Shown: positions 3,598 to 64,000, numbered from the stretch's first letter. The stretch: 64,000 nucleotides of DNA from Dehalococcoidia bacterium (GCA_046484125.1 JAWOBX010000043.1:3047-67046); one strand, 5' to 3'. Numbers and translations: made by a program. Notes: generated from the sequence alone by a model not told the origin.

Positions 3598-4359
3598 TCA
3601 CTCTTCCAAATTACATGGATCCCACTCTATCACCCGGCTTTTCAATGCCTCGGAAATGGCCTGTTTCAAATTGGATTGCTTAAGCTGTCTTATATTAAGC
3701 ACATTTTCGACCGTAATGGAGTCGAACCGCTCCAGAAAACGGCATTGCCTGCGAAATGAGAGAACAGTGGTTTTCTCACCACCATAGAAGAGGTATCGAA
3801 GCTCCCTGGAATAGGGTTGTAACTGGTTTATCGAATGATTGCAGACCCTGGAGAAGAATGTTTCCATCTGTTTTTCACGATGGCGCTTGAATCGACCCTC
3901 CGAAGATCCGCCTTTCTTGTGGCGTGAGTGTACCAGACCCGTGCCGACCTTGCTGGATACCATCTGTTCGCCATAGAATACGCCTATAGCGTAACTGCCC
4001 AGATGCAACAGTACAAGCGCTGTTGTATGATCCCGTTGAAGAAGCGAACGAATAGGTTCCGTCCAGGAGTGTTTTGAAAGAACCTGTTTTTCCAGAGGAA
4101 GCGGCGGCAGAATGAGAACCATATCACCACTCTCTCTCAAGAAGAGTGCTGCTCCGGTTTTGGAGCCATGAATAATATCGCCAGGTTCGGATGTGTTCTC
4201 CGGTGCGCCCTGCAGGTTTTGGAGAATTTCACGTATTGTGGCAATCGGCATTCCCGCTGGAAGGTAGAGCGAAAGCTCGATATTACCTGAGCTCTCTAGT
4301 TCGCTCAGAAGTTCAAGCACGCGGTTACGGGTCATTAGCTTGCTGGAATTAACCGACAT
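3598..4359 (-). CDS. eRF1 domain-2-like protein (eRF1/Pelota/Vms1-VLRF1 superfamily) with GGS in place of GGQ
   Basis: The segment LVHSRHKKGGSSEGRFKRHREKQMETFFSRV parallels the eRF1 GGQ loop ([28 protein letters not shown]). The gene is 82 bp downstream of mutS2 on the same strand. The family call is by eye only. Confidence 0.45.
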   Translation of the reverse strand: MSVNSSKLMTRNRVLELLSELESSGNIELSLYLPAGMPIATIREILQNLQGAPENTSEPGDIIHGSKTGAALFLRESGDMVLILPPLPLEKQVLSKHSWTEPIRSLLQRDHTTALVLLHLGSYAIGVFYGEQMVSSKVGTGLVHSRHKKGGSSEGRFKRHREKQMETFFSRVCNHSINQLQPYSRELRYLFYGGEKTTVLSFRRQCRFLERFDSITVENVLNIRQLKQSNLKQAISEALKSRVIEWDPCNLEE

Positions 4360-4440
4360 GATCTTTTAAAAATCTTAATTCATTTGTTGTATTTGCACTT
4401 CTTTTGGTGACTGAGTGAGAAAACGGGCTATCCAGAAAAT

Positions 4441-6819
4441 TCAGAGCATTGCTATGGTAACCCCATCCCCTCCCTCCTCCTGCTTCCCGCTCCTGAACGA
4501 ACGCACCAGAGGATGGGAAGCAAGCATATCTCTAACGACCTGCCTTGCCGTACCGGTACCGTATCCGTGAATTATACGCACCTGTTTGAAACCGGCGATT
4601 GAAACGTCGTTTAAATATGTGTCAAGTTCGGGCTCTATCTCATCAGCCCGTTTTCCGCGGAGGTCAAGCTCAAGAGACCGTGGCGTACTTTTCTCAGACT
4701 TCTTAACCGTGTATGACCGTTTAACCGGTGTTTCTGCTTCCTCTTCAATCCTTTCGACTTCATTCTCGTCCACCTTTATCATGGTACGACCGGCCTGGAC
4801 CTCAATCTGTCCCGTTTTGTCCGGCGGTGAGGTAACCGTGCCCCGTATGGTGGTATCAAGCACTCTGACCGAGTCACCAACGGATATTGACTGAGAATCG
4901 GGAGTTTTTTCAACCTCGCCTGAACGAGACGGCTGAGTGAGCCATCTGGTGGAATCGAGCTGCTCATGCGCGGTTTCCAGGGTGGATTTTGCCTCAGATA
5001 TGCTGTCTCTTGATTTCTCTTTCTTCAACATGGATGCAGCCTGCTGGATTTCCCTGCGCAATTGCGCTGCTTCTCTTATGATTCTCTCCTTTTCGTCCCT
5101 GAGCAGGATTTGTTGCTCTTCCTCCATATTTCGGATATCGAATTCTATGCGGTTTCTGAATTCTAACAACTGCTCTCTTTCTCGCTCCAGTTCCTCACGT
5201 ACCGAACGGATAGCTTCCTGCTCGCTTGCCATCCCGTCAAGCAATGATTCCATCTGAGAAGAACCGTGAGGCATCATCTCCCTTGCCTGGTCGATGATGG
5301 CAGCCGGCAGGCCCAGGTGCGAAGCAACCGCAAAGGCGTTGCTTCCCCCGGGAATACCCATAACCATGCGATAGGTTGGTGCCAGGGTAGCCGGATCGAA
5401 TTCCATCGAAGCGTTACTGAGCCCCGGTGTTGCGTGGGCGAACACTTTGAGTTCACTGTAGTGTGTGGTGGCTGCCACCAGCGCCCCCATAGAGAGAAAA
5501 TGCAGCATAATGGCCCGGGCCAGCGCCGACCCTTCAGCCGGATCGGTACTCGTTCCAAGTTCATCCAGCAATATAAGGCTCCGGTCAGTGGCGACCTGAA
5601 TTATGCGTATTATGTTTCCCATGTGCCAGCTGAAGCTGGAAACCGTTTCCTCTATGCTTTGTTCGTCGCCTATGTCGGCGTAGATACTGTCAAAAACAGG
5701 TAGTTTACTCCCCTCCGCCGCGGGGATGGGCACGCCCGATTGAGCCATGGCTACCATCAGTCCGATTGTTTTCAAAGATACTGTCTTGCCGCCGGTGTTG
5801 GGACCCGTGATTACCAGTCCGGAGAAATCGTCTCCAAGTTCCACAGTTAGGGGCACCGCCCTTTGACCCAGGAGAGGATGCCTGGCGCTTAGAAGCTGAA
5901 CGCCGCTTCGTTCCCTGCCTGTTCCCGTTCCGCCATTGACTATTTCAGGTTCAATGGCATTAACCGCCATGGCGTATCTTGCCTTTGCAAGGGCGAGATC
6001 CAGTTCCCCCATTGATGACAGGTTGTTTAAAATATCGGTGTGGTGCTCGGCAACCTGCTCGCTGAGGAACGTGAGCAGTCTCTGAATCTCGCGCTCCTCT
6101 TCAAGAGAAAGCTGGCGCAACTTGTTGCCCAGTTCGACGATGCTCATTGGCTCTATGAATACCGTCGCTCCGGTGTTGGATACATCGTGAATTATCCCCT
6201 TGATCTCCCTTTGATACTCGATCTTGAGAGGGATTACATATCTGCCAGACCTTTCGGTGATGAGTGATTCCTGTAAAAACGGCTGGATATCCTCTGATTT
6301 TATTAGATTTTCCAGGCGGTTAGTGAGGTTCCTCTTTGTATCTTTCAGCTCCCGGCGTATTCCCTCAAGCTCGGCGGTCGCGGTGTCAAGGATCTCCCCG
6401 GACGGATCGATACACTGGTCTATTATCTCTTCGAGATGGGGTAACGGCATAACGTTTTTAGCGATATCATAAAGCGCGGGGAAATCCAATGAAAGCTTTC
6501 TGAAACTGGAGTAAACACGGTTGGAAGCTGAAAGCACGGACCGTATTTCCAGCAGCGACATGGGCTCAAGTATTCTGGCGCGTGTGGACATATCCACTGT
6601 GTGGCGAACGTCGGTCAAATTGCTCAGTGTGAAGCCGGGCTCAACAGAAAGGAACCGGCGAGCCTCGGCCGACTGGGCCAATAGCAGAGATATATCTCCC
6701 GGGTTTGAAGAGGGAAACAGGGAATGAGCCAGTTCCTGGCCGAGGGGGAAGTCAGTGTAACTGGCAAGTATCTCCCTGATTCGGGGGAATTCAAGCATTT
6801 CCAGGCTTTTGATGTCCAT
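4441..6819 (-). CDS. mutS2: Endonuclease MutS2 (MutS paralogue with C-terminal Smr domain)
   Basis: It has a MutS ATPase core (Walker A GPNTGGKTV, DELGTSTDPAEG) and a C-terminal Smr domain (LDLRGKRADE…IIHGYGTG). The start was chosen at MDIKSLEMLEF (the ORF-track start at 6888 has no RBS). Confidence 0.85.
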   Translation of the reverse strand: MDIKSLEMLEFPRIREILASYTDFPLGQELAHSLFPSSNPGDISLLLAQSAEARRFLSVEPGFTLSNLTDVRHTVDMSTRARILEPMSLLEIRSVLSASNRVYSSFRKLSLDFPALYDIAKNVMPLPHLEEIIDQCIDPSGEILDTATAELEGIRRELKDTKRNLTNRLENLIKSEDIQPFLQESLITERSGRYVIPLKIEYQREIKGIIHDVSNTGATVFIEPMSIVELGNKLRQLSLEEEREIQRLLTFLSEQVAEHHTDILNNLSSMGELDLALAKARYAMAVNAIEPEIVNGGTGTGRERSGVQLLSARHPLLGQRAVPLTVELGDDFSGLVITGPNTGGKTVSLKTIGLMVAMAQSGVPIPAAEGSKLPVFDSIYADIGDEQSIEETVSSFSWHMGNIIRIIQVATDRSLILLDELGTSTDPAEGSALARAIMLHFLSMGALVAATTHYSELKVFAHATPGLSNASMEFDPATLAPTYRMVMGIPGGSNAFAVASHLGLPAAIIDQAREMMPHGSSQMESLLDGMASEQEAIRSVREELEREREQLLEFRNRIEFDIRNMEEEQQILLRDEKERIIREAAQLRREIQQAASMLKKEKSRDSISEAKSTLETAHEQLDSTRWLTQPSRSGEVEKTPDSQSISVGDSVRVLDTTIRGTVTSPPDKTGQIEVQAGRTMIKVDENEVERIEEEAETPVKRSYTVKKSEKSTPRSLELDLRGKRADEIEPELDTYLNDVSIAGFKQVRIIHGYGTGTARQVVRDMLASHPLVRSFRSGKQEEGGDGVTIAML

Positions 6820-6921
6820 TTGCTTTAACTGCTCTCCGTGTATAATTTTACGTATTTGTCGAATAGATTTCCACCCGGTGAATAACAACTGGTCTCAGCT
6901 TGAAAAAATGATATAATCTGG

Positions 6922-8929: not shown

Positions 8930-9601
8930 TTGGCAAGAGCGCTGAAAGTAACCAGTGACATATACATGGTTGGGGATTCCAGCCTATCGCACCCCTACGA
9001 TTGCTCGGTTTATCTGGTTGATGCCGGCGAACTGGTGTTGATCGATTGTGGAGCGGGATTGAGCTATACCACTTTGATCGACAATATAAAAAGTACCGGG
9101 CGGGATATCCGAATGCTTAAAGCTATTCTGGTGACGCATGCCCACATTGACCACATAGGAGCCCTGAAAAGATTCAAGGATGAATTTGGAGTAGATATCA
9201 TAGCGCATCAGCTTGACGCGCAAGCCATCGAGACGGGAAGGGGTGTGGGAGCCGAAATGTACGGGGTTGATTATGAGCCGTGTCAGGTAAATACCAAAAT
9301 AGAGGGTGAAGAGCAAATCATCGCCGCCGGTGAGAAGGAAATAAGAGTATTGCATATTCCCGGACATACTCAGGGAAGTATTGCCGCGTACATTGATTCA
9401 CCTGAGGAAAGAATATTGTTCGGGCAGGATATTCACGGTCCGTACATTCCACAGTGGGGAGCCGATATCGAAAAGGCCCGCGAGTCACTCCAGAAGCTGA
9501 TAGACCTGAAAGCGGATACACTTTGCGAGGGACATTTCGGTATATACAGGCCGGCGAAATCGGTGGAAGAATATATTCGAGGGTATCTCAACAGCATATA
9601 G
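8930..9601 (+). CDS. MBL-fold metallo-hydrolase
   Basis: It carries the HxHxDH motif (THAHIDHIG) and downstream His/Asp ligands. Confidence 0.7.
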   Translation: MARALKVTSDIYMVGDSSLSHPYDCSVYLVDAGELVLIDCGAGLSYTTLIDNIKSTGRDIRMLKAILVTHAHIDHIGALKRFKDEFGVDIIAHQLDAQAIETGRGVGAEMYGVDYEPCQVNTKIEGEEQIIAAGEKEIRVLHIPGHTQGSIAAYIDSPEERILFGQDIHGPYIPQWGADIEKARESLQKLIDLKADTLCEGHFGIYRPAKSVEEYIRGYLNSI

Positions 9602-9645
9602 TCCGGTACCTCATGCAAATATCCAGAGCTTGTAATTCCCGCAAA

Positions 9646-10470
9646 ATGCCAGATCCTCTGAATAGATACGTCACAATAGATGGCCGTTCCATCCATTTCC
9701 TGGAATGGGGCAACAGCAGCGACCCCACGGTTATATTACTTCACGGCCTTTTCGGCAACGCTCATTACTGGGATTTCCTAGGGTACGAACTGAGCAGTCA
9801 ATATCATATTATCGCGATTGACCAGAGAGGACACGGTGACAGCCAGTGGTCAGGAAAATACGGGCCGGTCGATTATGTTTCTGACCTGGAGGAATTCGTT
9901 GAAGTGATGGGCTATACCAGGTTTGCCTTAATAGGGCACTCAATGGGAGGGATAACCGCGATACTCTATGCCTCGCGGCACCCGGAGAGGGTGTCAAGCC
10001 TGATGATAGTCGATATCGGTCCGCGTCTGGATACAGCGGGGACTGATAGAATGATTAGACAAATGGCCTCGGAACCGGAGTTCTTTGATTCCATGGAAGG
10101 TGCATTTCGCTATGTCAGGGATGTCGAGCCGTTCTGCAGCGATGCTTTTATCAGGCACCAGTTGAGAACGGCGTTGCGCTCTGGCGAAGATGGGAAACTA
10201 TACTTTAAATTCGATAAAGCTCTGCGCCAAATTCCTATTCGTTCTCCGGAATGGTTATGGGAACACCTGGTCTCCGTCTTGTGTCCGGCTCTTGTGATTC
10301 GTGGCCGGGAGAGCGACATTCTTTCGCGTGAAATGGCAAATGAAATGACGAAGCAGTTACCATATGGTTCGATGGTTGAGATAGAAAGAGCCGGACATGG
10401 TGTCCCGGCTGAAAATCCGGATGCATTTCTGGCTGAAGTGAAACGAATTCTTTGCACACAGAGAGAGTGA
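9646..10470 (+). CDS. Alpha/beta-fold hydrolase
   Basis: HGLFGN is followed by the nucleophile elbow GHSMGG. The start was chosen after the MBL stop (MPDPLNRYVTIDG); the ORF-track start at 9454 would overlap the upstream gene. Confidence 0.75.
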   Translation: MPDPLNRYVTIDGRSIHFLEWGNSSDPTVILLHGLFGNAHYWDFLGYELSSQYHIIAIDQRGHGDSQWSGKYGPVDYVSDLEEFVEVMGYTRFALIGHSMGGITAILYASRHPERVSSLMIVDIGPRLDTAGTDRMIRQMASEPEFFDSMEGAFRYVRDVEPFCSDAFIRHQLRTALRSGEDGKLYFKFDKALRQIPIRSPEWLWEHLVSVLCPALVIRGRESDILSREMANEMTKQLPYGSMVEIERAGHGVPAENPDAFLAEVKRILCTQRE

Positions 10471-23079: not shown

Positions 23080-24426
23080 CTAATTCCAGTTGGCTTTAAA
23101 CCATCTCCCGATGTCCATCGCCTCCATGGAGCCAATCATTATTTGCCAGTCCGGCATCTCGTCTTCGAGTTCACCTCTGAGTATAGCGACTTTGCCCGGG
23201 AGTATGATCTTCTGGTGACTGACTTTACTGGAAGCGTCCTGTTCCTTGGCTGTCTTGGCGATTTTCTCCGCGTCAAATTTGCCTGCGGACCACGCGGTGA
23301 GGACCGATAGCCCTTCGGTATCGCAGACCATAAGCCAGGCGGGAATTCCGGTCGCCTCAATCTCGCCGGCAATGGTGAAATAGGTGAGCGAGAAGTTGGT
23401 GGTAACACAGAAAGGACTTTCCGCGGTGGGATTGCCGATTGGGTATATCCCTGCCGCCATTTGAATAGGCTTTTGAGGGTCCGTATAGATATTTAATCTC
23501 AGGGTTATCAACGGATAAACCATAGCCGGTGAGAAATGATCGAGTACAATTATACTGCCGTATTTGGCGATGAATTGTGCCGCCAGTACCGCTTCCTCAT
23601 TGAGTGATGAAGCCTCTTCCCCCGGAAATGTGATGGTTGGGAAGCCCATCGGACGAAAGCCCTTCTTTATGGCTAAACGTCGCATCTGAGTGAGAGCGAT
23701 CAGGGAGTCACTGGGACCTCTCGTTCCGGGGTCCAGGAATAAATCCTCAAGGCCGGCGCTTTCTGCCTTCTCTGAAAGTTCGGCGAGTTCATCCAGTCCA
23801 TCACCCCGAATGCCCAGGGCAACGCCGTTACTTTTTGCGATCTCGACCATTTGATCGATGTTGTCTTTGTTGGCGCCATAGATCGCGGGCTTGGCGTCGG
23901 CGACTTTTTCCATAGCGGCAATTATAGCTGATGGGTCAGTGGATATCAGGATCATCGGAAGGTCCGTTTTACTTCTTACGGCTTCAACACAGGCAGCGAA
24001 TTTTCCAGCATCTCCTGAATCGTTCTGAACAGCTATGCCATCCATGCCGAAGGTCATTCCCACGCGCTCTACCTGGTAGCTGGTGACTTCTTCGACTGTC
24101 TTGCCTATCTCATCATCAGACTGCGTATCCTTTACCCTGACTACCAGTGCGGCTGGATTGAAAAATGTTTTGTCATGGCGAAACATGACCGTTTCACCGC
24201 CGACTTTCATTTGCTTATCGCCTTCTCCTATGGTAACCAGGCGCATTGGAGGGCGTGAGGCTGCCTCGAGCGCTTCCTTCGCCTCGTCGCTCACGTAGGG
24301 ACATTTCGAAAGCTCGGCTTGACCCTGGGCCAGTTTCATAGCGAATGCCAGACATGTTGGGAAGCCACACTCTTTGCAATTGGTCTGCGGTAGATACTTG
24401 TAGATTTGTATACCAGTCAAAGCCAT
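23080..24426 (-). CDS. acsC: Corrinoid iron-sulfur protein large subunit (CODH/ACS gamma)
   Basis: It has the N-terminal [4Fe-4S] Cys motif (CKECGFPTCLAFAMKL…CPY) followed by a TIM-barrel region. The product is 448 aa. Confidence 0.85.
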   Translation of the reverse strand: MALTGIQIYKYLPQTNCKECGFPTCLAFAMKLAQGQAELSKCPYVSDEAKEALEAASRPPMRLVTIGEGDKQMKVGGETVMFRHDKTFFNPAALVVRVKDTQSDDEIGKTVEEVTSYQVERVGMTFGMDGIAVQNDSGDAGKFAACVEAVRSKTDLPMILISTDPSAIIAAMEKVADAKPAIYGANKDNIDQMVEIAKSNGVALGIRGDGLDELAELSEKAESAGLEDLFLDPGTRGPSDSLIALTQMRRLAIKKGFRPMGFPTITFPGEEASSLNEEAVLAAQFIAKYGSIIVLDHFSPAMVYPLITLRLNIYTDPQKPIQMAAGIYPIGNPTAESPFCVTTNFSLTYFTIAGEIEATGIPAWLMVCDTEGLSVLTAWSAGKFDAEKIAKTAKEQDASSKVSHQKIILPGKVAILRGELEDEMPDWQIMIGSMEAMDIGRWFKANWN

Positions 24427-24440
24427 TTTTCATATCTCCT

Positions 24441-25382
24441 TTACGCGCTGAGTTTGTTAATAGTTTCCTTGATTACCTCTACCGCTTTGGGGTGAGACAT
24501 AACAAGCAGGTCGGCACCGCTGTAGATCGAAGCCGTAGCGGTGAGTTCCTCCCATATTACAGCACGCTCATCGAGGCTGCCCCACTCGTCCGGTACACCT
24601 TCAGCGGCCTTGGCTTCTTTCTGGCGCCATGATTCCGGCCCGACGTGATTGAGTATTGGCATCTGGCACATACTGTCGCCCATCAGGGCGGCCAGTCTAA
24701 CACGCTCGTTTATGGAATAACCATATTCTATGCCATAACCAAGGGCACCGGTGTCAGGGTCCATTATTATCGACTCAAGCGGAACGCCAACATCAGATAC
24801 AAGTACATTTAGCTGTTTTGCCAGATTGATATCAAGGGGCGTCTTCGCTATGGCTATGTGTCCGTCAGACATGCAGACGGCCGCTACCGTTTTGTAGTTC
24901 TTTTCCTCGCAGTTCCCCAAAGCTATTCGCTGTCCCTTGGCCACCTCTGAAGCGGCCATTAAAACCTCATTATCCTTCTCCGGCACGCCGGGTCCCAGGA
25001 CTATAAGAGGCACATCTACTGCGGAAAGAACTTTATCTACAGTGGCCTTCGCCTCTGCCGCGCCGGTGTTGCCTGCCTCCGGATGAGCACTTACAAGTCT
25101 CAAACAAATTATATCCGCCCCTATCTCTACGGCCTTTTTGGCCCAGTTTACCGGATCTTTGATCACATCACCCCAGGCGGAAACCAGCACCGGTGACGCG
25201 TCTGCCGGTTCGGAATCGCGTACCTCGATCGCTATTCTGGTTGGGTTGGGGGTATCACCCTCGAACTTCAGAAATGGAAGGGTAGTGGCTCCTCCCAGAG
25301 TGACTTCCTTGCGACCGCCGCCACCAAGCTTGACTTCCCTGATCTTTCCAGTCCATTTTTCCATGGGGATTTCGACAGCCAT
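24441..25382 (-). CDS. acsD: Corrinoid iron-sulfur protein small subunit (CODH/ACS delta)
   Basis: It aligns by eye with Moorella AcsD (MAV…, …GNCEEKNYK…, …GYGIEYGYSINERVRL…). The product is 313 aa. Confidence 0.8.
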   Translation of the reverse strand: MAVEIPMEKWTGKIREVKLGGGGRKEVTLGGATTLPFLKFEGDTPNPTRIAIEVRDSEPADASPVLVSAWGDVIKDPVNWAKKAVEIGADIICLRLVSAHPEAGNTGAAEAKATVDKVLSAVDVPLIVLGPGVPEKDNEVLMAASEVAKGQRIALGNCEEKNYKTVAAVCMSDGHIAIAKTPLDINLAKQLNVLVSDVGVPLESIIMDPDTGALGYGIEYGYSINERVRLAALMGDSMCQMPILNHVGPESWRQKEAKAAEGVPDEWGSLDERAVIWEELTATASIYSGADLLVMSHPKAVEVIKETINKLSA

Positions 25383-25438
25383 TGAAGGGCCTCCTTCTTC
25401 TTAATTAAATTTCAGGCAATATATTTTTTCTGCCCAGT

Positions 25439-27661
25439 CTACATCATTGGTTCCATGGAAAGTGCCGGATGCCCCTTTTCCTCCAGGAAAGCGAGTAATC
25501 CATCGGAATCCTGTGCGATGTCCCCGTCGCAAATCTTATCCATTAAGTCGGGCTCGCCAGCCATCTCGCATGCGGCCTTCAGATCTTCAGCAAACTCCTC
25601 TTTGAGGTTCTTGGAGAGCCAGACCAGTCGTTTTATTCCTCCATCCGCTGAGATAAACTTGTTGCTGGTAATATACGTTTTGCCGTGTCCCATCATGCCC
25701 GGCGTTTGCTGTCCGCCTCCCATAACACCCATTAACTGAGTGAACGTCATGCCTGCTGGTGTATTGCTGTAATCATCTCGTGAAACAACCATCACCCCGT
25801 TCGCTTCCGGTACAATGGACATTACGCACTCACAGCATCCACAAGTGGTCATGGGCGCGTCCATTACAGAATAAATGGTAAATCTTTCAATAGCCTGCTG
25901 AGAATTCTGGTATACGAAGTCATTTACTCCCTGCCATTCGCCCTTCTCCTCGGAAAGGCAGCTCCCCTTATTTACAGGCTGGTTTGCTCCGTTTGGATTG
26001 ATTTCATATGCCGCTCTACAGTCGAGCCAGCTGTATGCTCCGCAGAGTCCTACCCGTTCAGGATTGATAATACAAACGTGCGTAGGGGCGAATGACTGGC
26101 AGAGTGTGCAACTGTAGTATACATCGACCGCGCTGTCCGTCATGCCCGAGACTCGCTCATTTCTCTCTTTGTATACTTCTCGCGCCTGTTCGATCAGTTC
26201 ATCAACCTTGGCAGGATCGGTATAGATAGTAGTCTGAACTTTATCTACGATTGCACCATAATGGTTATGGAAGTTTGCGTGGAGGATAATTCCGATATCC
26301 TTTGCCCGGAAACCCTTATCTACCGCATTTTTATGAATACGGATCCAGGTGATATCCCGCTGGCCCTGGTGCTGTACACCCTCGGCACCATTGATGAAGT
26401 GGTGTATCTGCCGTTCCAGTACTCCCTCGAAATCCTTCTGCATTTTACGCCCGGCGACATCCACCACGATTGCCATGGGGATCTTGGCTCCTACATCAGC
26501 GGAATCCAGATCCGGCCCCACAAGATCGACTTTCCCGTCCTCAACCTCATCGACATCCTTCATTCGAAGCCATTCGAAGCAGGTACCTCCCTTTCCTCCC
26601 ATCTCAACCCTGAGATCGGCCTTGCGAACAACTTCACCCTCAAAGGCCGGGCCATAAGAAACAGGAATCGGTACCTTGGTTACTTTGATCTTGATGCCGC
26701 GGACTTCAATACATTTCTCGACAAGGCGCTCGACCCGTTCCATATCGTCTTTGCCCGGAATATCATCAAATGGCATGCTGACGACATGCTCGTATTGAGT
26801 GATTCCGACCGGCAATATGTTTGGAATCAGGGTATCGGCGACAACCGGGAATCCATAGTTGATGGCACCGGCTGCAGTAGCGTATTTCAGCTCGTCAATG
26901 GGTCCAAGTGCCAGCGCAAAAGCGAAGCATCTGAATTTGTTATATAGAAGGTTTCGTCTGGCGTCACCCGCTTCGTATCCACCGAAACTGATGGCCGCGC
27001 GAGTGGCGTAACCCAGGGCATATATTATGGATTCAGTATCACTGCCGAACGGTATGGTGAATGTGTCGTATCCCAGGTCAACCCCCTGGTTTAACAACTG
27101 GCCTGTAAGGGTTGTGCCGTTGTTATCGCCGGCCATGAAAACAAGAAGGCCTTTGGACTGGAGCTCGCGGATCAGTTTAACCGCTACATCTTCGTTCTTG
27201 GCCGCACCAAGTATGGCCGCGAAGCCTGGCATGGTCCCATCGACCATAGCCACACCCCAGGACCTGACCTGAACATCATCAACAGCACCGTTCCATGTAA
27301 AACCGTTACTTACCTCGGGCTGCTGCCCTCTGGCATACTCAATTCCTTTAATACCCTCTTCCGCGAAAAGGGTTGCCATACCCGCATCCAGAGTTTCTCC
27401 CAGGTAAGGAAGCCAAATATTATCTGATGGAGGTGGGGGGAGAAGTGATTTGCTGTATTCCAGTACTGGTTGAAGATCGCTGACCTTCTCAACCTTTTGG
27501 CCTGTCAGCCCATAGATTACAGGGAGATAATACACGGTATTCGGTAGTTTGATCGGAGCGTCGCCCCCGGGGTCCTTCATTGCATCATTAAGTAAATCCT
27601 CGAACTTCTTAACCTCTGCGTTTGCGCCTTTAATTGCTGCTGTTGCGATAAATCTGGACAT
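25439..27661 (-). CDS. acsB: Acetyl-CoA synthase catalytic subunit (A-cluster protein)
   Basis: The product is 740 aa and has the AcsB-type N-terminus (…TVYYLPVIYGLTG…) and the C-terminal A-cluster Cys motif region (…CTLCQSFAPTHVCII…CGA…). Confidence 0.85.
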   Translation of the reverse strand: MSRFIATAAIKGANAEVKKFEDLLNDAMKDPGGDAPIKLPNTVYYLPVIYGLTGQKVEKVSDLQPVLEYSKSLLPPPPSDNIWLPYLGETLDAGMATLFAEEGIKGIEYARGQQPEVSNGFTWNGAVDDVQVRSWGVAMVDGTMPGFAAILGAAKNEDVAVKLIRELQSKGLLVFMAGDNNGTTLTGQLLNQGVDLGYDTFTIPFGSDTESIIYALGYATRAAISFGGYEAGDARRNLLYNKFRCFAFALALGPIDELKYATAAGAINYGFPVVADTLIPNILPVGITQYEHVVSMPFDDIPGKDDMERVERLVEKCIEVRGIKIKVTKVPIPVSYGPAFEGEVVRKADLRVEMGGKGGTCFEWLRMKDVDEVEDGKVDLVGPDLDSADVGAKIPMAIVVDVAGRKMQKDFEGVLERQIHHFINGAEGVQHQGQRDITWIRIHKNAVDKGFRAKDIGIILHANFHNHYGAIVDKVQTTIYTDPAKVDELIEQAREVYKERNERVSGMTDSAVDVYYSCTLCQSFAPTHVCIINPERVGLCGAYSWLDCRAAYEINPNGANQPVNKGSCLSEEKGEWQGVNDFVYQNSQQAIERFTIYSVMDAPMTTCGCCECVMSIVPEANGVMVVSRDDYSNTPAGMTFTQLMGVMGGGQQTPGMMGHGKTYITSNKFISADGGIKRLVWLSKNLKEEFAEDLKAACEMAGEPDLMDKICDGDIAQDSDGLLAFLEEKGHPALSMEPMM

Positions 27662-27696: not shown

Positions 27697-28071
27697 TTAG
27701 TATTTACGGAAGTCTCCGGTCATGGCGGCGTCGATTGGATTGGTGCCGGCCATCCTGGGCGCTCTGGTGAATCCCGGACTCGATGCCCACTGGGCCGGCC
27801 TTTCGGTCAGTTCTTCGAAACCGGCCGAAATCAGAACTTTGTTTACTTCTTCAGCTTTCTGTTCATCGGCATCAACTCTCACGATCTTTCCGCCGACGGC
27901 CAGGCCGATTTTGTAGTAATTTAAAGCCTGTTCCGGAAGATCGAGCCCTTCCAGCTCATTTTCTCCACCTTGGTCAATGACTTTGGCTTCGTACCCCCTT
28001 GATTTGAGTTCGGAAACCGCGGTTTCCGCGTCCTCCGGGCGTTTGAACAGCTTTGTTACGGCTTTTGCCAT
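27697..28071 (-). CDS. Hypothetical protein, first gene of the acs operon
   Basis: A 124-aa ORF sits directly upstream of acsB on the same strand. It has a charged N-terminus, no family was assigned, and a promoter lies about 70 nt upstream. Confidence 0.4.
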   Translation of the reverse strand: MAKAVTKLFKRPEDAETAVSELKSRGYEAKVIDQGGENELEGLDLPEQALNYYKIGLAVGGKIVRVDADEQKAEEVNKVLISAGFEELTERPAQWASSPGFTRAPRMAGTNPIDAAMTGDFRKY

Positions 28072-28150
28072 ATCGCGAAACCCTCCTGTTAATCATTACG
28101 TTGTTTGCTTTATCTGAATACCGACTACAAATAAAAGCACCCAAGGAATT

Positions 28151-28179
28151 ATTTTAGCCTTGACGTGAACGGAAGTCAA
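28151..28179 (-). promoter_or_regulatory. Sigma70-like promoter for the acs operon, with a palindrome over the -35
   Basis: The minus strand reads TTGACT-17 nt-TAAAAT. The inverted repeat TTGACgtgaacggaaGTCAA overlaps the -35 hexamer. Confidence 0.4.
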
Positions 28180-28436
28180 CCTTACATAATAACCCCAAAC
28201 AGCGATTGATTCCGGGTTATATTTGCGTCATGTCGTCACCCTGTTTCACTAAACGATAACAGGAATGAGTTATAGGACATATTTTTCATCAGGTAAAGAA
28301 GGGTTTCCCGGATTATGAAAAATAAAAAAAGGTGCGAGGTTATTACTCTCCTTAAAGGGTGAAAGCATTTGAAATTCTATTTTCGGCATAAACCGGGAGT
28401 TAAAAAGTGACTGCTGTTCGAGAGAGTTAACCGATC

Positions 28437-29189
28437 CTATTGTGAGCGATATTGGTCAAGGGTCTCATCCGAGAAATCGGCGTTGGTGTATACCTGCTGG
28501 ACGCCATCAATTTCCTCGAGTTTGTCTATCAACTTGAGTGTTTGAAGAGCGGACTTATCCTCCAGTTTGACCATGTTCTGTGGAATCAACGCTATGTCGG
28601 CAGATGCTATAGTAAGCCCGCTATCCTCGAGGAATTTCCTTACCTTCTCCAGGTCACCCGGTGTGCTGTATATCTCGATGATATCGCCTTCCGCTTTAAT
28701 GTCGTCGGCACCCGCATCAATGGCGGCAAGCTCAAGTTCCTCGGAGTAGTGGCTATCTGATTCCATGGTTATAATGCCCTTGGCCTCGAATATCCAGGTG
28801 ACGCAACCCGCCTCGCCAAGGCTGGCATTGTGCTTGGTGAAAGTGCTGCGGACCTCTGAAAGAGTTCTGTTACGATTGTCAGTCAATATCTGGAGAAGCA
28901 AAGCCGCACCGCCCGGACTGTAACCCTCAAGGGTCATCTCCTCCAGCGCTCCCGATTCCTTGCTCTCCACTGCCCGTTTGATGGCGCGTTCTATATTGTC
29001 GACGGGCATGTTATTGTCTTTAGCTTTCTGTACTGCAAGGCGAAGCGTGGGGTTGGAATCGGGATCTCCACCGCCGTTTCGGGCGGCTACGGTGATCTCG
29101 CGGCCCAGTTTGGTAAATAACTGTCCCCTTTTTGCGTCCGCCGCGCCTTTTTGACGTTTGATTGTAGACCACTTGGAGTGACCGGACAT
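28437..29189 (-). CDS. yebC: YebC/PmpR-family DNA-binding regulator
   Basis: The N-terminus MSGHSKWSTIKRQKGAADAKRG is characteristic of YebC. The product is 250 aa. Confidence 0.9.
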   Translation of the reverse strand: MSGHSKWSTIKRQKGAADAKRGQLFTKLGREITVAARNGGGDPDSNPTLRLAVQKAKDNNMPVDNIERAIKRAVESKESGALEEMTLEGYSPGGAALLLQILTDNRNRTLSEVRSTFTKHNASLGEAGCVTWIFEAKGIITMESDSHYSEELELAAIDAGADDIKAEGDIIEIYSTPGDLEKVRKFLEDSGLTIASADIALIPQNMVKLEDKSALQTLKLIDKLEEIDGVQQVYTNADFSDETLDQYRSQ

Positions 29190-29201
29190 TTTATTCCTCT
29201 A

Positions 29202-29609
29202 TCAATTTCTATCCGCGATCGCCTTCATAACGTACTCGACGATTTCAGATGTGGGTGTTCCCGGCCCGAAGATCTCGTTGACCCCGATTTTCCTCATTTG
29301 CTGATGGTCATCCTCGGGAATGATACCACCGGCTATGACCATGACATCAGTCAGGCCTCTCTTGTTAAGCTCTTCCATGATCAATGGGAATAGCTCGGTG
29401 TGAGCGCCGGAAAGAATGCTGAGACCCACTACATCAACATCTTCTTGCATGGCGGATTCGGCGATCATCTCCGGCGTCTGTCTTATGCCGGTGTAGATCA
29501 CTTCCATCCCCGCGTCCCTGAAGGCGCGGGCTACTACCTTGGCTCCTCTATCATGGCCATCAAGGCCCGGTTTGGCAACAAGAACTCTGACAGTGGGTTT
29601 ATCAGCCAT
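29202..29609 (-). CDS. Methylmalonyl-CoA mutase B12-binding domain protein (stand-alone)
   Basis: It has the DxHxxG B12-binding motif ([12 protein letters not shown]) and is 135 aa. No large subunit is present in the window. Confidence 0.8.
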
Positions 29610-29797
29610 TTATCAGATACTCCTTATGATGTCGTTTCGTCAGGTGTATTCCTATTGATTATCGCTATCGCTATTATCAGTTTCTTGAGAAACCTCTTAT
29701 ATCCCTCATTTGTGTCCCCAACACGGGTGGGATTGAAGATCCGGGTTATACCCCATTACATCTTAAGCCACTACTTACATTCCAGGAGCTACCGCAA

Positions 29798-30202
29798 TCA
29801 TTCCCGGGTTTTCTGAGCCAGCTCAATGAGGACTCCGTTGACTGACTTTGGATGAATGAATCCGATTTTACCGGCCAGGCCTTTCCTGCCCTGTTTATCG
29901 ATAAGCTTTGCCCCTTTGGCTTCAAGGCGTGTCAGCTCTTCGTCGGTGTCATCAACTTCAATACAGATGTGATGAATGCCTTCCCCTTTATTTTCGATAA
30001 ATTTGGCGACTCCGCTTTCCGGATCGACCGGTTCAATTAATTCTAACTCAGTATCTCCGATATGAATCATAGCCGCCTTGACTCCCTGATCCGGAACCTC
30101 CTCGATTTTGGAGGGCTTTAGGCCGAAAAGGTTTTCGAAAGTACTCACGGCACTATCGAGGTTTTTTACTGCAACGGCGACGTGGTCAATCCTTTTGAGC
30201 AT
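29798..30202 (-). CDS. Methylmalonyl-CoA epimerase (VOC superfamily)
   Basis: MLKRIDHVAVAV…HICIEVDD is present. The start was set at the internal ATG with an AGGAGG RBS; the upstream 94 codons of the track ORF are non-homologous. Confidence 0.8.
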   Translation of the reverse strand: MLKRIDHVAVAVKNLDSAVSTFENLFGLKPSKIEEVPDQGVKAAMIHIGDTELELIEPVDPESGVAKFIENKGEGIHHICIEVDDTDEELTRLEAKGAKLIDKQGRKGLAGKIGFIHPKSVNGVLIELAQKTRE

Positions 30203-30585
30203 ATAATCCTCCTGTCTGTCATGTAAGGGGAGTAGATTAAAATAGGTGCACTCAAGGCTGAATATACAATAATTGCGCAATGGTGTCAATTTTGTCACAA
30301 TCCGTTTAGATACCGAAAAACAGCGCTCAAAGGCAAATGCGTCCACACTTCGAGTGAGTAATTGTGCCGTGGCTGGAGGCTTTCTATATTTGAGGAAATT
30401 TACACGGGGCGTAACAACTCCTCGTCCAGGGGAACCAAAAGCTGAGAGGGTGAAAACATGCATCAGAATAAAAGCTGTTTTCAACGTTGCCTGCTATATT
30501 TCCCACACAAAATATCGATGTGATACAATAGCTACATAAATATGGCGCCGCCGAGGAAAACATCTTTGATGATGGTGTTAAAAGT

Positions 30586-31398
30586 ATGAAGAACGTTGTT
30601 TTACACAGGAGTCCAAGGGTAAAAAAGCCCGTCATGCTGGCTGTATGGCCCGGAGTAAGCGACGTTGCTCTGGAAGTAGGCAACTATCTGCTGGACAGGC
30701 TGGATGCCGCGGAGTTCGCCGAGATCGAGCCGTTGAACTTTTTTACCCCGGTCGGGATAACGGTTCATGATAACGTATTACAGGCACCTGTTTTCCCTGA
30801 GAACAAGTTCTACCTGATAAAAAGACCGGAAGCCAAAAATGATTTAATAATATTCTACGCGGAGGCTCAGCCGGATCAAAATCACTACGATCTGGCAAAG
30901 GTTGTTCTGGACGTGGCGGAGAGGTTCAGGGTGAAGCGGATATATACTTGTGCCGCTGCCCTGGTACAGCACAACGTCGAGAAGTCGCGAGTTCTGGCGG
31001 CGGCTACGGATGCGAAGCTGATTGAAGAAGTGAAAAAGTACGATGTTTCACTGGTGGGTGAATTTCAGATCAGGGGTCTTAACGGATTACTGCTTGGGGC
31101 TGCCAGGGAGAGGGGTATTGAGGGAATTTGCATTCTTGGAGAAACGGCGCAATATGCAGCGGAGCTTCCCAATCCCATTGCCGCCAGTGCCATTCTCAAA
31201 ACACTTACACGGATTTTTAATCTGCAAATAGATCTCTCTGAAATAGAGAGAGATGCCAGGCAGATGGCAGAGGAGATTAAAACGCTATCCCAGGAATTCA
31301 TGGCGAAATACATCAGCCATTTTACTCAGCCCATTTGGGAACGTAATCCGCGAAACGAATATGAAGATGATGATGAAGACGATGATGAAGATGAATAG
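30586..31398 (+). CDS. PAC2-family (proteasome-assembly-chaperone-like) protein with a poly-acidic C-terminal tail
   Basis: The overall pattern resembles PAC2/COG1938 proteins; this assignment is tentative. The C-terminus is EYEDDDEDDDEDE. Confidence 0.4.
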   Translation: MKNVVLHRSPRVKKPVMLAVWPGVSDVALEVGNYLLDRLDAAEFAEIEPLNFFTPVGITVHDNVLQAPVFPENKFYLIKRPEAKNDLIIFYAEAQPDQNHYDLAKVVLDVAERFRVKRIYTCAAALVQHNVEKSRVLAAATDAKLIEEVKKYDVSLVGEFQIRGLNGLLLGAARERGIEGICILGETAQYAAELPNPIAASAILKTLTRIFNLQIDLSEIERDARQMAEEIKTLSQEFMAKYISHFTQPIWERNPRNEYEDDDEDDDEDE

Positions 31399-63532: not shown

Positions 63533-64000
63533 CTGTCAAAAGCTACTAAGGGCACGTGGAGGATGCCTTGGTGCCAAGAGCCGATGAAGGGCGTGGCTAG
63601 GCTGCGATAAGCCTCGGTTAGCTGCCAAGTAAGCCAAGCCGGGGATTCCCGAATGAGGTAACTCATCCGCCCGAAAGGCGGATACTCCTGGCTGAACACA
63701 TAGGCCAGGCAGGGGGAACCGGGGGAACTGAAACATCTTAGTACCCCGAGGAAAAGAGATTATTCCCTGAGTAGCGGCGAGCGAAAGGGGAGAAGCCCAA
63801 ACCCTGATGACCAAACGGTCCTGGAACCTGAGTCATCGGGGGGTTGTAAGACACGGCAAGCTCCGACCAGGTAGGAGCAGGGAGTTACAAACCGTAACCC
63901 TAGTTGAAGGACTCTGGAATGAGCCACCATAGAGGGTGAAAGTCCCGTAGGCGAAAGGGGGAGGCTCCCGGGCCGTGTTCTTGAGTACCACGGGGCACGG
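63533..64000 (+). rRNA. rrl: 23S ribosomal RNA, 5' portion (continues beyond the window)
   Basis: It shows conserved 23S 5'-domain strings (GGATGCCTTGG, GATGAAGGGCGTGG, CTGCGATAAGCC, GGGGGAACCGGGGGAACTGAAACATCTTAGTACCCCGAGGAAAAGA, GAGTAGCGGCGAGCGAAAGGGGA). Confidence 0.9.

What the first reader, a model, noticed from the sequence alone, without database searches (positions are those of the whole stretch)
3598..6888. mutS2 followed on the same strand by an eRF1-domain-2-like gene: a candidate two-gene ribosome-rescue module
Seen in sequence: a complete mutS2 (ATPase core plus C-terminal Smr domain) lies 82 bp upstream, on the same strand, of a 253-aa ORF. That ORF's central loop (HSRHKKGGSSEGRFKRHREKQ) mirrors the eRF1 catalytic GGQ loop ([20 protein letters not shown]) but has GGS, so the catalytic Gln is missing. 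Established: Bacillus subtilis MutS2 senses collided ribosomes and splits them to feed ribosome-associated quality control. eRF1, Pelota and Vms1 (VLRF1) family proteins bind the A site of stalled ribosomes, and their GGQ loop is what reaches into the peptidyl-transferase centre. Inference: the pair may be a collision sensor plus a release-factor-like effector. The GGQ to GGS change hints at a Pelota-like role without hydrolysis, or at a nuclease-type role as in Vms1/ANKZF1, rather than canonical peptide release. Bacterial eRF1-like proteins are essentially uncharacterised experimentally.
Basis: partly seen in the sequence, partly recalled or inferred. Interest (0 to 1): 0.72.

Follow-up and report, generated by a model that had tools for sequence, protein, structure and literature searches.

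The report
Conserved MutS2 plus Vms1-like gene pair
In this Dehalococcoidia genome the ribosome-collision ATPase gene mutS2 sits next to a bacterial relative of the eukaryotic Vms1/eRF1 release factor, and the same pairing recurs in three gene orders across many related genomes, which points to a bacterial ribosome-rescue pathway with its own release-type factor, although this copy lacks the usual catalytic glutamine.

Summary
Both genes are on the minus strand. mutS2 is 4441-6888 (likely start ATG 6819), the gap is 81 bp, and the 253-aa gene is 3598-4359.

The small protein belongs to a named but experimentally untested family, Pfam PF18859 acVLRF1. NCBI labels it 'Vms1/Ankzf1 family peptidyl-tRNA hydrolase'. 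A confident AlphaFold model matches aRF1/eRF1 best, then Balon, Dom34 and Vms1.

The new result is the linkage:
- mutS2 lies just upstream on the same strand in 59 of 80 species-level Dehalococcoidia/Chloroflexota genomes, while the other flanking genes differ.
- A second, distant clade has the reverse order (acVLRF1 then mutS2).
- One locus has the two genes divergent.
- I found no paper describing this link. The 2019 paper that defined the family calls prokaryotic members standalone.

The loop reads GGSSE where the family motif is GGxSQ. That position switches among Q, A, S and E at least 20 times in this clade, while the residues around it are invariant.

Best reading: MutS2 splits collided ribosomes and acVLRF1 then acts on the 50S-peptidyl-tRNA product. 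Its chemistry is unknown and cannot rely on a Gln side chain.

Verdict: a new variant of a known kind. Interest about 0.7.

The parts
4441..6888 (-). mutS2 ORF (815 codons from TTG 6888). The likely true start is ATG at 6819, giving 792 aa.
   Evidence: TIGR01069 mutS2 scores 827 bits against a cutoff of 400. Pfam finds MutS_V, MSSS and Smr. Homologue alignments start at residues 24-27. Walker A GPNTGGKT and Walker B LLDELG can be read in the translation.
5272..5817 (-). MutS2 ABC-type ATPase domain (MutS domain V, residues 358-539 of the ORF)
   Evidence: Pfam PF00488 E 5.3e-34
4756..4881 (-). MutS2 MSSS / KOW-like SH3 domain (residues 670-711)
   Evidence: Pfam PF20297 scores 30.8 bits against a cutoff of 26.8. 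In B. subtilis MutS2 the KOW domain binds uS10 on collided ribosomes (PMC10897456).
4444..4668 (-). MutS2 Smr domain (residues 741-815). It carries DLR rather than DxH, plus HGYG.
   Evidence: Pfam PF01713 E 5.8e-22. The motifs are read from the translation. B. subtilis MutS2 has the same DLR/HGxG pattern, binds collisions and splits ribosomes without cleaving mRNA (PMC10897456).
6845..6873 (-). Weak sigma-70-like promoter match upstream of the likely mutS2 start
   Evidence: Consensus scan, 9 of 12 matches. The total number of such sites in the region is no higher than in shuffled sequence, so this is only suggestive.
4360..4440 (-). 81-bp intergenic spacer between mutS2 and the acVLRF1 gene
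   Evidence: No promoter-like or terminator-like site falls in it. As RNA it is less structured than shuffled sequence, z = +2.57. In 46 related loci where the two genes are direct neighbours the median gap is 38.5 bp, and 37 gaps are at most 100 bp.
3598..4359 (-). acVLRF1-family gene (253 aa; NCBI annotates 245 aa from M9)
   Evidence: Pfam PF18859 scores 78.3 bits against a cutoff of 27.1. A 100%-identical database entry is named 'Vms1/Ankzf1 family peptidyl-tRNA hydrolase [Dehalococcoidia bacterium]'. AlphaFold2 model pLDDT 89.8.
3631..4026 (-). [quoted passage not shown]
3868..3930 (-). Catalytic-type loop and start of the following helix, HSRHKKGGSSEGRFKRHREKQ (residues 144-164)
   Evidence: This is the most conserved stretch of the protein. 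Mean column entropy over residues 137-166, leaving out positions 154-155, is 0.48 bits, against 1.73 for the whole protein. G141, H144, G150, G151, S153, R156, R159, R161 and Q164 are invariant in 73 sequences.
3898..3912 (-). GGSSE (residues 150-154): the family's GGxSQ motif with Glu in place of Gln
   Evidence: The motif definition comes from PMC6514570. Position 154 across 73 Dehalococcoidia-clade sequences: A 33, Q 24, S 14, E 2. At least 20 state changes are needed on an NJ tree.

Best explanation
The region is a two-gene unit, probably a bicistronic operon. It encodes MutS2 and an acVLRF1-family protein, a bacterial member of the Vms1-like branch of the archaeo-eukaryotic release-factor (aeRF1) superfamily.

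**Proposed mechanism.**
1. MutS2 has an intact ATPase, a KOW-like domain and a DLR/HGxG Smr domain like the B. subtilis enzyme. It recognises collided ribosomes and splits the stalled one using ATP.
2. acVLRF1 has no C-terminal GTPase-binding domain and no NIKS-type codon reader. It then docks in the vacated A-site/peptidyl-transferase region of the 50S-peptidyl-tRNA product and inserts its invariant Gly-Gly loop.
3. This resolves the trapped peptidyl-tRNA, either by ester hydrolysis or by cutting the tRNA 3' end. The role matches that of Vms1/ANKZF1 in eukaryotic ribosome-associated quality control.

**What is shown.** Gene identities, fold, the strong conservation of the pairing, and strong purifying selection on the loop.

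**What is inferred.** Co-transcription, ribosome binding, order of action and chemistry. This protein has GGSSE, and about two thirds of its Dehalococcoidia relatives have A, S or E at that site. The chemistry therefore cannot depend on the Gln side chain. It would have to rely on the loop backbone, on other invariant residues (R146, H147, S153, R156), or on being non-catalytic.
For: **Identities.**
- MutS2 scores 827 bits on TIGR01069, and acVLRF1 scores E 7.9e-22 on PF18859.
- AlphaFold2 model pLDDT 89.8.
- Foldseek: aRF1/eRF1 E 1e-10, Balon 1e-6, Pelota 1e-5, Vms1-60S 6r84 2e-5.

**Linkage in the Dehalococcoidia clade.**
- A one-genome-per-species scan returned 80 Dehalococcoidia/Chloroflexota loci.
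- 59 of them have mutS2 upstream on the same strand.
- De novo clustering of all flanking ORFs put mutS2 at position -1 in 48 loci. It was at position -2 in 10 more, behind inserted IS200-like or DUF2779 genes.
- Every other flanking position is dominated by rare clusters: no other cluster occurs in more than 9 of the 81 regions compared (80 loci plus the window).
- Gaps are operon-like, with a median of 38.5 bp.
- The window's 81-bp gap has no predicted terminator or promoter and is unstructured.

**Linkage survives rearrangement.**
- A distant clade has MutS2 only 34-38% identical to the window's and an invariant loop Q.
- That clade has acVLRF1 followed by mutS2 in L084 (91 bp), L088 (4-bp overlap), L094 (a HicB gene between) and L086 (a 2.8-kb toxin-antitoxin insert).
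- Metagenome loci L097, L098, L100, L102 and L104 show the same order, and L105 has a weak partial match (44 bits) to the MutS2 N-terminus at its contig end.
- L093 has the two genes divergent, 194 bp apart.
- Remote aeRF1 relatives L106-L137 (L137 gave no confirmed hit) have no mutS2 nearby, which serves as a negative control.

**Selection.** The loop is the most conserved part of the protein in both Q and non-Q members.

**Literature.**
- MutS2 splits collided ribosomes (PMC10897456).
- Vms1 releases nascent chains from 60S and needs G292, Q295 and R288 (PMC5989216).
- No dedicated bacterial RQC termination factor was known in 2024 (PMC11317155).

**Not a known defence system.** Neither protein matches a PADLOC defence model.
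Against: - There are no expression, binding or activity data.
- The Vms1-defining glutamine is absent here (E154) and is not conserved in the clade. In Vms1, Q295L impairs release (PMC5989216), so a Vms1-type catalytic mechanism is not simply transferable.
- About a quarter of related loci lack mutS2 within 6 kb, as do L085, L089, L091 and L096.
- The family also occurs in Actinobacteria by its Pfam definition. A survey found 0 of 3,213 actinobacterial genomes with mutS2 or rqcH (PMC11633108). The protein can therefore work without MutS2.
- RqcH was not found among the large ORFs of this window. Its presence elsewhere in the genome could not be tested.
- All linked genomes may belong to one phylum. 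The taxonomy of the second clade is unknown, so some of the conservation could reflect shared ancestry.
Confidence: 0.6

Rival explanations
1. Pelota/ABCE1-like co-splitting. acVLRF1 binds the empty or stalled A site of the intact 70S and helps the ABC-type ATPase MutS2 pry the subunits apart. It acts before or during splitting and performs no chemistry on peptidyl-tRNA, much as non-catalytic Dom34/Pelota works with ABCE1.
For: - There is no Gln at any candidate catalytic position here, and that position varies freely in the clade, as in Gln-less Pelota.
- The tight gene pairing with a splitting ATPase fits a factor that works together with it.
- PMC10897456 itself draws the parallel between inactive Smr domains and inactive eRF1-family splitters.
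Against: - acVLRF1 lacks the C-terminal domain through which eRF1 and Pelota contact their GTPase and ABCE1 (253 aa).
- The invariant Gly-Gly loop with flanking arginines is the feature that reaches the peptidyl-transferase centre in catalytic members. Pelota does not keep it.
- The second mutS2-linked clade keeps an invariant Gln, which suggests an ancestral catalytic role.
- B. subtilis MutS2 splits disomes in vitro without such a partner (PMC10897456).
Confidence: 0.18
2. No functional link. The adjacency is inherited synteny within Chloroflexota, and acVLRF1 is a standalone rescue or release factor, as proposed for prokaryotic VLRF-1 proteins in 2019.
For: - PMC6514570 describes prokaryotic VLRF-1 members as standalone.
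- About a quarter of loci lack mutS2 nearby.
- Actinobacteria are reported to lack mutS2 entirely (PMC11633108) yet are part of the family's definition.
Against: - The flanking genes on both sides are not conserved while the pair is.
- The pair persists in three orientations and across MutS2 divergence down to 34% identity.
- It survives insertions of mobile or toxin-antitoxin genes between the two.
- Gaps are short and in some cases the genes overlap.
Confidence: 0.1
3. Balon-like ribosome hibernation or A-site parking factor. acVLRF1 occupies the A site of idle ribosomes without catalysis.
Against: - The Balon chains matched here are about 360-375 residues, roughly 100 longer than the 253-aa acVLRF1. 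From my own recollection Balon is a three-domain protein that works with EF-Tu, and acVLRF1 lacks that C-terminal domain.
- aRF1, eRF1 and the Pfam acVLRF1 model match better.
- A hibernation role gives no reason for conserved pairing with a collision-sensing splitting ATPase.
Confidence: 0.05
4. DNA-directed role. MutS2 acts as the recombination-suppressing nicking endonuclease first described for it, and the RNase H-fold partner is a nucleic-acid-processing accessory.
For: - From my own knowledge, MutS2 was first assigned to suppression of recombination in Helicobacter and Thermus.
Against: - The Smr domain has DLR rather than the catalytic DxH.
- The partner's best matches, by a wide margin, are ribosome-binding release-factor family proteins, and it keeps their Gly-Gly loop and arginine-rich helix rather than RNase H acidic catalytic residues.
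Confidence: 0.03

Closest known systems
acVLRF-1 family (Pfam PF18859; Burroughs & Aravind 2019, PMC6514570)
   Same: - The profile match is well above the Pfam threshold.
- The size is similar, about 250 aa.
- It has an RNase H-fold release-factor domain, a short N-terminal module and no C-terminal domain.
- It comes from the Chloroflexota lineage.
- Its loop has the form GGxS-.
   Different: - The family motif GGxSQ reads GGSSE here, and Q is replaced by A, S or E in about two thirds of the Dehalococcoidia clade.
- The score is below the NCBIfam acVLRF1 cutoff (92.8 against 125).
- The family was described as standalone. Here it is tightly linked to mutS2.
Vms1 / ANKZF1 (eukaryotic RQC release factor)
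   Same: - It belongs to the same VLRF-1 branch of the aeRF1 superfamily.
- There is no stop-codon reader.
- Like Vms1, it is associated with a pathway that starts with splitting of collided ribosomes.
   Different: - It has none of the Rei1-type zinc finger, ankyrin repeats or VIM motif that Burroughs & Aravind (PMC6514570) list for eukaryotic Vms1-type proteins.
- The invariant Gln that Vms1 needs (Q295) is absent.
- Its genetic partner is MutS2, not an Rqc2/Ltn1/Cdc48 set.
- Its activity is untested.
aRF1 / eRF1 class-I release factors
   Different: The GGQ Gln is Ser. The NIKS-bearing part of the N domain and the whole C domain (the eRF3/aEF1A and ABCE1 interface) are missing, so it is not a stop-codon-dependent terminator.
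Bacillus subtilis RQC pathway (MutS2, RqcH, RqcP/YlmH, Pth)
   Same: The MutS2 domain set is the same, and so is the DLR/HGxG Smr signature. The proposed logic is also the same: a collision sensor and splitter followed by resolution of 50S-peptidyl-tRNA.
   Different: In B. subtilis the release step is assigned to the general enzyme Pth, and no dedicated factor is known (PMC11317155). Here a release-factor-fold protein is genetically coupled to MutS2. Whether RqcH or RqcP exist in this genome is unknown.
Dom34/Pelota with ABCE1
   Same: An aeRF1-fold protein without a catalytic Gln is paired with an ABC-family ATPase that splits ribosomes.
   Different: - Pelota has three domains and works with a GTPase.
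- MutS2 is a MutS-clade ATPase, not an ABCE-clade one.
- acVLRF1 keeps the Gly-Gly loop, which Pelota lacks.

Membership tests
MutS2 (TIGR01069) | Full-length match to the equivalog model above its cutoff | tested here: met
   827.1 bits against a cutoff of 400, covering residues 27-815
MutS2 (TIGR01069) | Domain set of the ribosome-splitting enzyme: MutS ATPase with Walker A/B, a KOW-like domain and a C-terminal Smr, without the MutS I/II mismatch domains | tested here: met
   Pfam finds MutS_V, MSSS and Smr only. GPNTGGKT and LLDELG can be read in the translation. The architecture is as described in PMC10897456.
MutS2 (TIGR01069) | ATP-dependent splitting of collided ribosomes | not testable with these tools
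   Requires biochemistry
acVLRF-1 (Pfam PF18859) | Profile match above the Pfam gathering score | tested here: met
   78.3 bits against 27.1, covering residues 112-243 of the protein and positions 2-129 of the 130-position model
acVLRF-1 (Pfam PF18859) | NCBIfam NF041024 acVLRF1 model cutoff | tested here: not met
   92.8 bits against a cutoff of 125. NCBI nevertheless names the identical protein 'Vms1/Ankzf1 family peptidyl-tRNA hydrolase'.
acVLRF-1 (Pfam PF18859) | GGxSQ loop motif with conserved Gln (PMC6514570) | tested here: not met
   The loop is GGSSE. In 73 clade members the position is A 33, Q 24, S 14, E 2. In the top 150 family representatives it is Q 95, A 28, S 15.
acVLRF-1 (Pfam PF18859) | Two-part architecture: a short N-terminal module plus the release-factor domain, with no C-terminal Pelota-type domain | tested here: met
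   253 aa. The AlphaFold2 model has two domains. Pfam finds nothing else.
Vms1/ANKZF1 (eVLRF-1) | Invariant Gln of the GxxQ motif, required for release (Q295 in yeast) | tested here: not met
   There is no Gln at residues 152-154. The requirement in Vms1 comes from PMC5989216.
Vms1/ANKZF1 (eVLRF-1) | Accessory domains listed for eukaryotic Vms1-type proteins by Burroughs & Aravind (Rei1-type zinc finger, ankyrin repeats, VIM) | tested here: not met
   Pfam hits are limited to acVLRF1, baeRF_family10 and eRF1_2
Vms1/ANKZF1 (eVLRF-1) | Release of the nascent chain or cleavage of the tRNA CCA end on the isolated large subunit | not testable with these tools
   Requires in vitro assays
aRF1/eRF1 class-I release factors | GGQ tripeptide | tested here: not met
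   The profile alignment to 3agk puts the GGQ Gln on S152
aRF1/eRF1 class-I release factors | Three domains, including the NIKS stop-codon reader and the C domain | tested here: not met
   TIGR03676 scores only 56.5 bits against a cutoff of 234.7, matching model positions 63-259 of 403. The protein is 253 aa.
Bacterial RQC system (MutS2-RqcH-RqcP-Pth) | RqcH (NFACT) encoded in the same genome | not testable with these tools
   Pfam found no NFACT/RqcH domain in any of the 10 largest ORFs between 12 and 64 kb of the window. The rest of the genome is not available. Chloroflexota overall: 26 of 41 genomes have rqcH and 35 of 41 have mutS2 (PMC11633108).
Known anti-phage defence systems (PADLOC) | Match to any defence-system protein model | tested here: not met
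   No hits for either protein at E up to 0.01

The most novel reading that the evidence does not exclude
Many Chloroflexota run a ribosome-associated quality-control pathway in which a Vms1-type factor, genetically wired to the collision sensor and splitter MutS2, is the dedicated factor that clears peptidyl-tRNA from split 50S subunits. This would be the first dedicated bacterial RQC termination factor and a prokaryotic counterpart of the eukaryotic Vms1 step. In the Dehalococcoidia branch it would work without the 'catalytic' glutamine, which implies release or cleavage chemistry that does not use that side chain.
Probability: 0.45. Interest if true: 0.82.

Novelty: new variant of a known kind. 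Interest (0 to 1): 0.7.

Why it matters
Release of the nascent chain is described as the least understood step of bacterial ribosome-associated quality control. As of 2024 no dedicated bacterial termination factor was known, and the general enzyme Pth was assigned the job (PMC11317155).

A release-factor-fold protein of the Vms1 branch, held next to mutS2 through gene-order changes in dozens of species, gives a concrete and cheap-to-test candidate for that step. It also suggests that the pairing of 'split the ribosome, then release with a Vms1-type factor' exists outside eukaryotes.

The repeated replacement of the supposedly catalytic glutamine, inside an otherwise invariant loop, is a natural experiment on what that residue does. 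It bears on the dispute over whether Vms1-type proteins act as hydrolases or as tRNA nucleases.

Tried and rejected
1. I looked for RqcH or other RQC genes in the window. Pfam on the large ORFs gave only metabolic and transport genes. A YebC/TACO1 gene lies 24 kb away and is not linked.
2. I tested whether the Q/A/S/E state tracks mutS2 adjacency. It does not.
3. I asked whether genes inserted between mutS2 and acVLRF1, or replacing mutS2, might be extra pathway parts. They are a weak IS200-like gene, DUF2779, a GNAT, HemN-like, a peptidase, cysteine synthase and a radical-SAM gene, with no pattern.
4. I tried to reach actinobacterial family members to see their neighbours. The third homologue search, with P0240, gave only 7 hits. 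The cluster look-up gave almost no organism names. The taxonomy of the second clade and the actinobacterial contexts therefore remain unknown.
5. I searched the supplement of PMC11633108 for Dehalococcoidia rqcH/mutS2 calls. The stored file is truncated and has no such rows.
6. The afdb50 fold library was unavailable.
7. Shaw & Green 2007 and Verma 2018 are not held. The statement that bacterial release factors tolerate Gln substitutions rests on my own recollection plus the summary in PMC5799190 that the Gln side chain has a 'packing role'.
8. Defence-system reading: no PADLOC hits.
9. Terminator or structured element in the 81-bp gap: none.

Full report
**1. What is in the sequence**

The region holds two ORFs on the minus strand: an 815-codon ORF at 4441-6888 and a 253-codon ORF at 3598-4359, with 81 bp between them.

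The long ORF is MutS2.
- NCBIfam TIGR01069 scores 827 bits against a cutoff of 400.
- Pfam finds MutS domain V, the MSSS/KOW-like SH3 domain and a C-terminal Smr domain.
- The translation shows Walker A (GPNTGGKT) and Walker B (LLDELG).
- The Smr domain has DLR plus HGYG. B. subtilis MutS2 has the same DLR/HGxG pattern, binds collided ribosomes and splits them without cutting mRNA (PMC10897456).
- Alignments to homologues and to TIGR01069 start at residues 24-27, so the real start is probably ATG 6819.

The window comes from a Dehalococcoidia metagenome-assembled genome. A 100%-identical database protein carries that label.

**2. The 253-aa protein**

It matches Pfam PF18859 'Actinobacteria/chloroflexi VLRF1 release factor' at E 7.9e-22. 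Weaker matches are baeRF_family10 and eRF1 domain 2. NCBI names the identical protein 'Vms1/Ankzf1 family peptidyl-tRNA hydrolase', although the NCBIfam model scores below its cutoff.

A 25-sequence alignment (A1) gave an AlphaFold2 model with mean pLDDT 89.8. Structural matches:

| Search | Match | Score |
|---|---|---|
| Foldseek, PDB | aRF1/eRF1 | E about 1e-10 |
| Foldseek, PDB | Balon | E about 1e-6 |
| Foldseek, PDB | Pelota | E about 1e-5 |
| Foldseek, PDB | Vms1 on the 60S (6r84) | E 2e-5 |

A profile search of PDB sequences aligns residues 5-185 to Aeropyrum aRF1 residues 8-216 (E 3.7e-17). The fold assignment is therefore secure. The refutation test 'unrelated fold' fails.

**3. The loop**

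The family was defined by Burroughs & Aravind (PMC6514570). They give its loop motif as GGxSQ and treat that Q as the catalytic glutamine. The window protein has GGSSE.

The profile alignment to aRF1 (KMGGQSQRRY against KKGGSSEGRF) puts the canonical GGQ glutamine on S152, which is near-invariant (S in 71 of 73 sequences, T in 2). No candidate position holds Gln.

How position 154 behaves:
- Across 73 clade members it is A 33, Q 24, S 14, E 2.
- An NJ tree needs at least 20 changes at that site.
- Among the 150 best family representatives at 50% clustering it is Q 95, A 28, S 15.
- The surrounding loop is the most conserved part of the protein. Its mean entropy is 0.48 bits against 1.73 overall, and G141, H144, G150, G151, S153, R156, R159, R161 and Q164 are invariant.

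The loop is therefore under strong selection, but the Gln side chain is dispensable in this clade.

For comparison, Vms1 needs G292, Q295 and R288 (PMC5989216). In bacterial release factors the glycines are essential, while the Gln side chain is described as having a packing and water-positioning role (PMC5799190). My recollection that Gln-to-Ala release factors keep substantial activity could not be checked here.

**4. Is the pairing conserved?**

A scan of one genome per GTDB species returned 80 loci, all Dehalococcoidia/Chloroflexota.
- tblastn with the window MutS2 finds mutS2 upstream on the same strand in 59 of them.
- Eleven loci with full 6-kb flanks lack it.
- I called ORFs in all loci and clustered them de novo. 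mutS2 is at position -1 in 48 loci and at position -2 in 10 more.
- In those 10, a weak IS200-like gene or a DUF2779 gene has been inserted between the two.
- Every other flanking position is dominated by rare clusters, and no other cluster occurs in more than 9 of the 81 regions compared (80 loci plus the window).
- In the window the neighbours are a TetR/ABC pair downstream and a divergent MFS transporter upstream. These are not conserved elsewhere.
- Gaps between direct neighbours have a median of 38.5 bp, and 37 of 46 are at most 100 bp.
- The window's gap has no promoter-like or terminator-like site and folds worse than shuffled sequence.

**5. The pairing survives rearrangement**

Look-ups of more distant family members and a metagenome scan gave the following.

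| Arrangement | Loci |
|---|---|
| mutS2 then acVLRF1 | L081 (7-bp gap) |
| acVLRF1 then mutS2 | L084 (91 bp), L088 (4-bp overlap), L094 (HicB gene between), L086 (2.8-kb toxin-antitoxin insert), L097, L098, L100, L102, L104; L105 only a weak partial match at the contig end |
| Divergent | L093 (194 bp apart) |
| No mutS2 nearby | L085, L089, L091, L096, L099, L103 |

The MutS2 proteins of the reversed-order clade are only 34-38% identical to the window's. That clade keeps an invariant Gln in the loop (A2). Remote aeRF1 relatives picked up by the same scan (L106-L137; L137 gave no confirmed hit) have no mutS2 nearby.

A pair that is retained in three orientations, across deep divergence, with unconserved flanks, is the classic signature of functional coupling.

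**6. Known or new?**

The two families are known. The link appears not to be.
[quoted passage not shown] It never mentions MutS2 or Smr.
- Searches for MutS2 with Vms1 or VLRF1, or with gene neighbourhoods, returned no paper describing the pairing.
- PMC10897456 has no neighbourhood analysis of this kind.
- PMC11633108 reports mutS2 in 35 of 41 Chloroflexota genomes and rqcH in 26 of 41, and neither gene in 3,213 Actinobacteriota. acVLRF1 must therefore also be able to work without MutS2.

**7. Mechanism**

Best reading (confidence about 0.6): MutS2 senses and splits collided ribosomes, and acVLRF1 then enters the A-site/peptidyl-transferase region of the 50S-peptidyl-tRNA product and resolves it. 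This parallels the step Vms1 performs after splitting in eukaryotes.

Shown here: identities, fold, linkage and selection on the loop. Inferred: co-transcription, ribosome binding, order of action and chemistry.

The Gln-free loop means one of three things:
- backbone-driven hydrolysis
- a nuclease-type reaction using other invariant residues
- a non-catalytic role

Rivals:
- a Pelota/ABCE1-like co-splitting role (0.18)
- inherited synteny with no functional link (0.10)
- a Balon-like hibernation role (0.05)
- a DNA-directed role (0.03)

**8. Verdict**

The protein is a member of the acVLRF1 family by profile but fails that family's Gln motif, and it is not a Vms1 or eRF1 orthologue by their defining features. 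I rate it a new variant of a known kind, with interest 0.7.

Noticed in passing
L001, L003, L006, L008, L013, L018, L029 (e.g. L018:5428-5991); L027 and L055 (e.g. L027:4463-5983): In several Dehalococcoidia genomes an extra gene sits on the same strand between mutS2 and the acVLRF1 gene. It is either a roughly 190-aa gene with a weak IS200-like Y1 transposase match or a roughly 505-aa DUF2779 gene. In L003 and L008 the IS200-like gene lies upstream of acVLRF1 but no mutS2 is visible on the contig. This spot seems to be a recurrent insertion site that does not break up the pair.
   Followed up: partly
L094:6070-6282; L086:5916-8365: In the reversed-order clade, toxin-antitoxin-type genes (HicB-like; Zeta/AAA_33, HTH_3, PIN, MazE/PrlF) are inserted between acVLRF1 and mutS2.
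   Followed up: no
[not shown]
   Followed up: partly
L096:4107-5750; L085:1428-2707: Where mutS2 is absent, acVLRF1 can directly follow rsmI (16S rRNA methyltransferase, 3-bp gap) or scpB (5-bp gap). The rsmI case is another translation-related neighbour.
   Followed up: no
window 28437-29189 (-): A YebC/TACO1-family gene is present. From my own recollection, this family has recently been tied to relief of ribosome stalling. It lies 24 kb from the pair and is not linked to it.
   Followed up: no
window 30586-31398 (+): A PAC2-family protein (proteasome assembly chaperone 2-like; Pfam E 4.9e-34) is encoded in a bacterial genome.
   Followed up: no
window 23080-27661 (-): An acetyl-CoA synthase/CO dehydrogenase gene cluster (CdhC/ACS beta and two CdhD-like genes) indicates Wood-Ljungdahl-type metabolism.
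   Followed up: no
window 63536-64000 (+): The 5' end of a 23S rRNA gene starts here. Protein-coding ORFs run up to about 63.3 kb and no 16S rRNA gene lies upstream in the window, so the rRNA genes appear to be unlinked.
   Followed up: no
window about 28000-31000: GC skew switches from negative to persistently positive near 30 kb. Gene orientation switches at the same place, from mostly minus to almost entirely plus. This is an origin-like or inversion-boundary signature. No dnaA was looked for.
   Followed up: no
window 8930-9601 (+) and 9454-10470 (+): The metallo-beta-lactamase-fold ORF and the alpha/beta-hydrolase ORF overlap by about 150 nt as listed. The Pfam match of the second begins at residue 91, so its true start is probably further downstream.
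   Followed up: no
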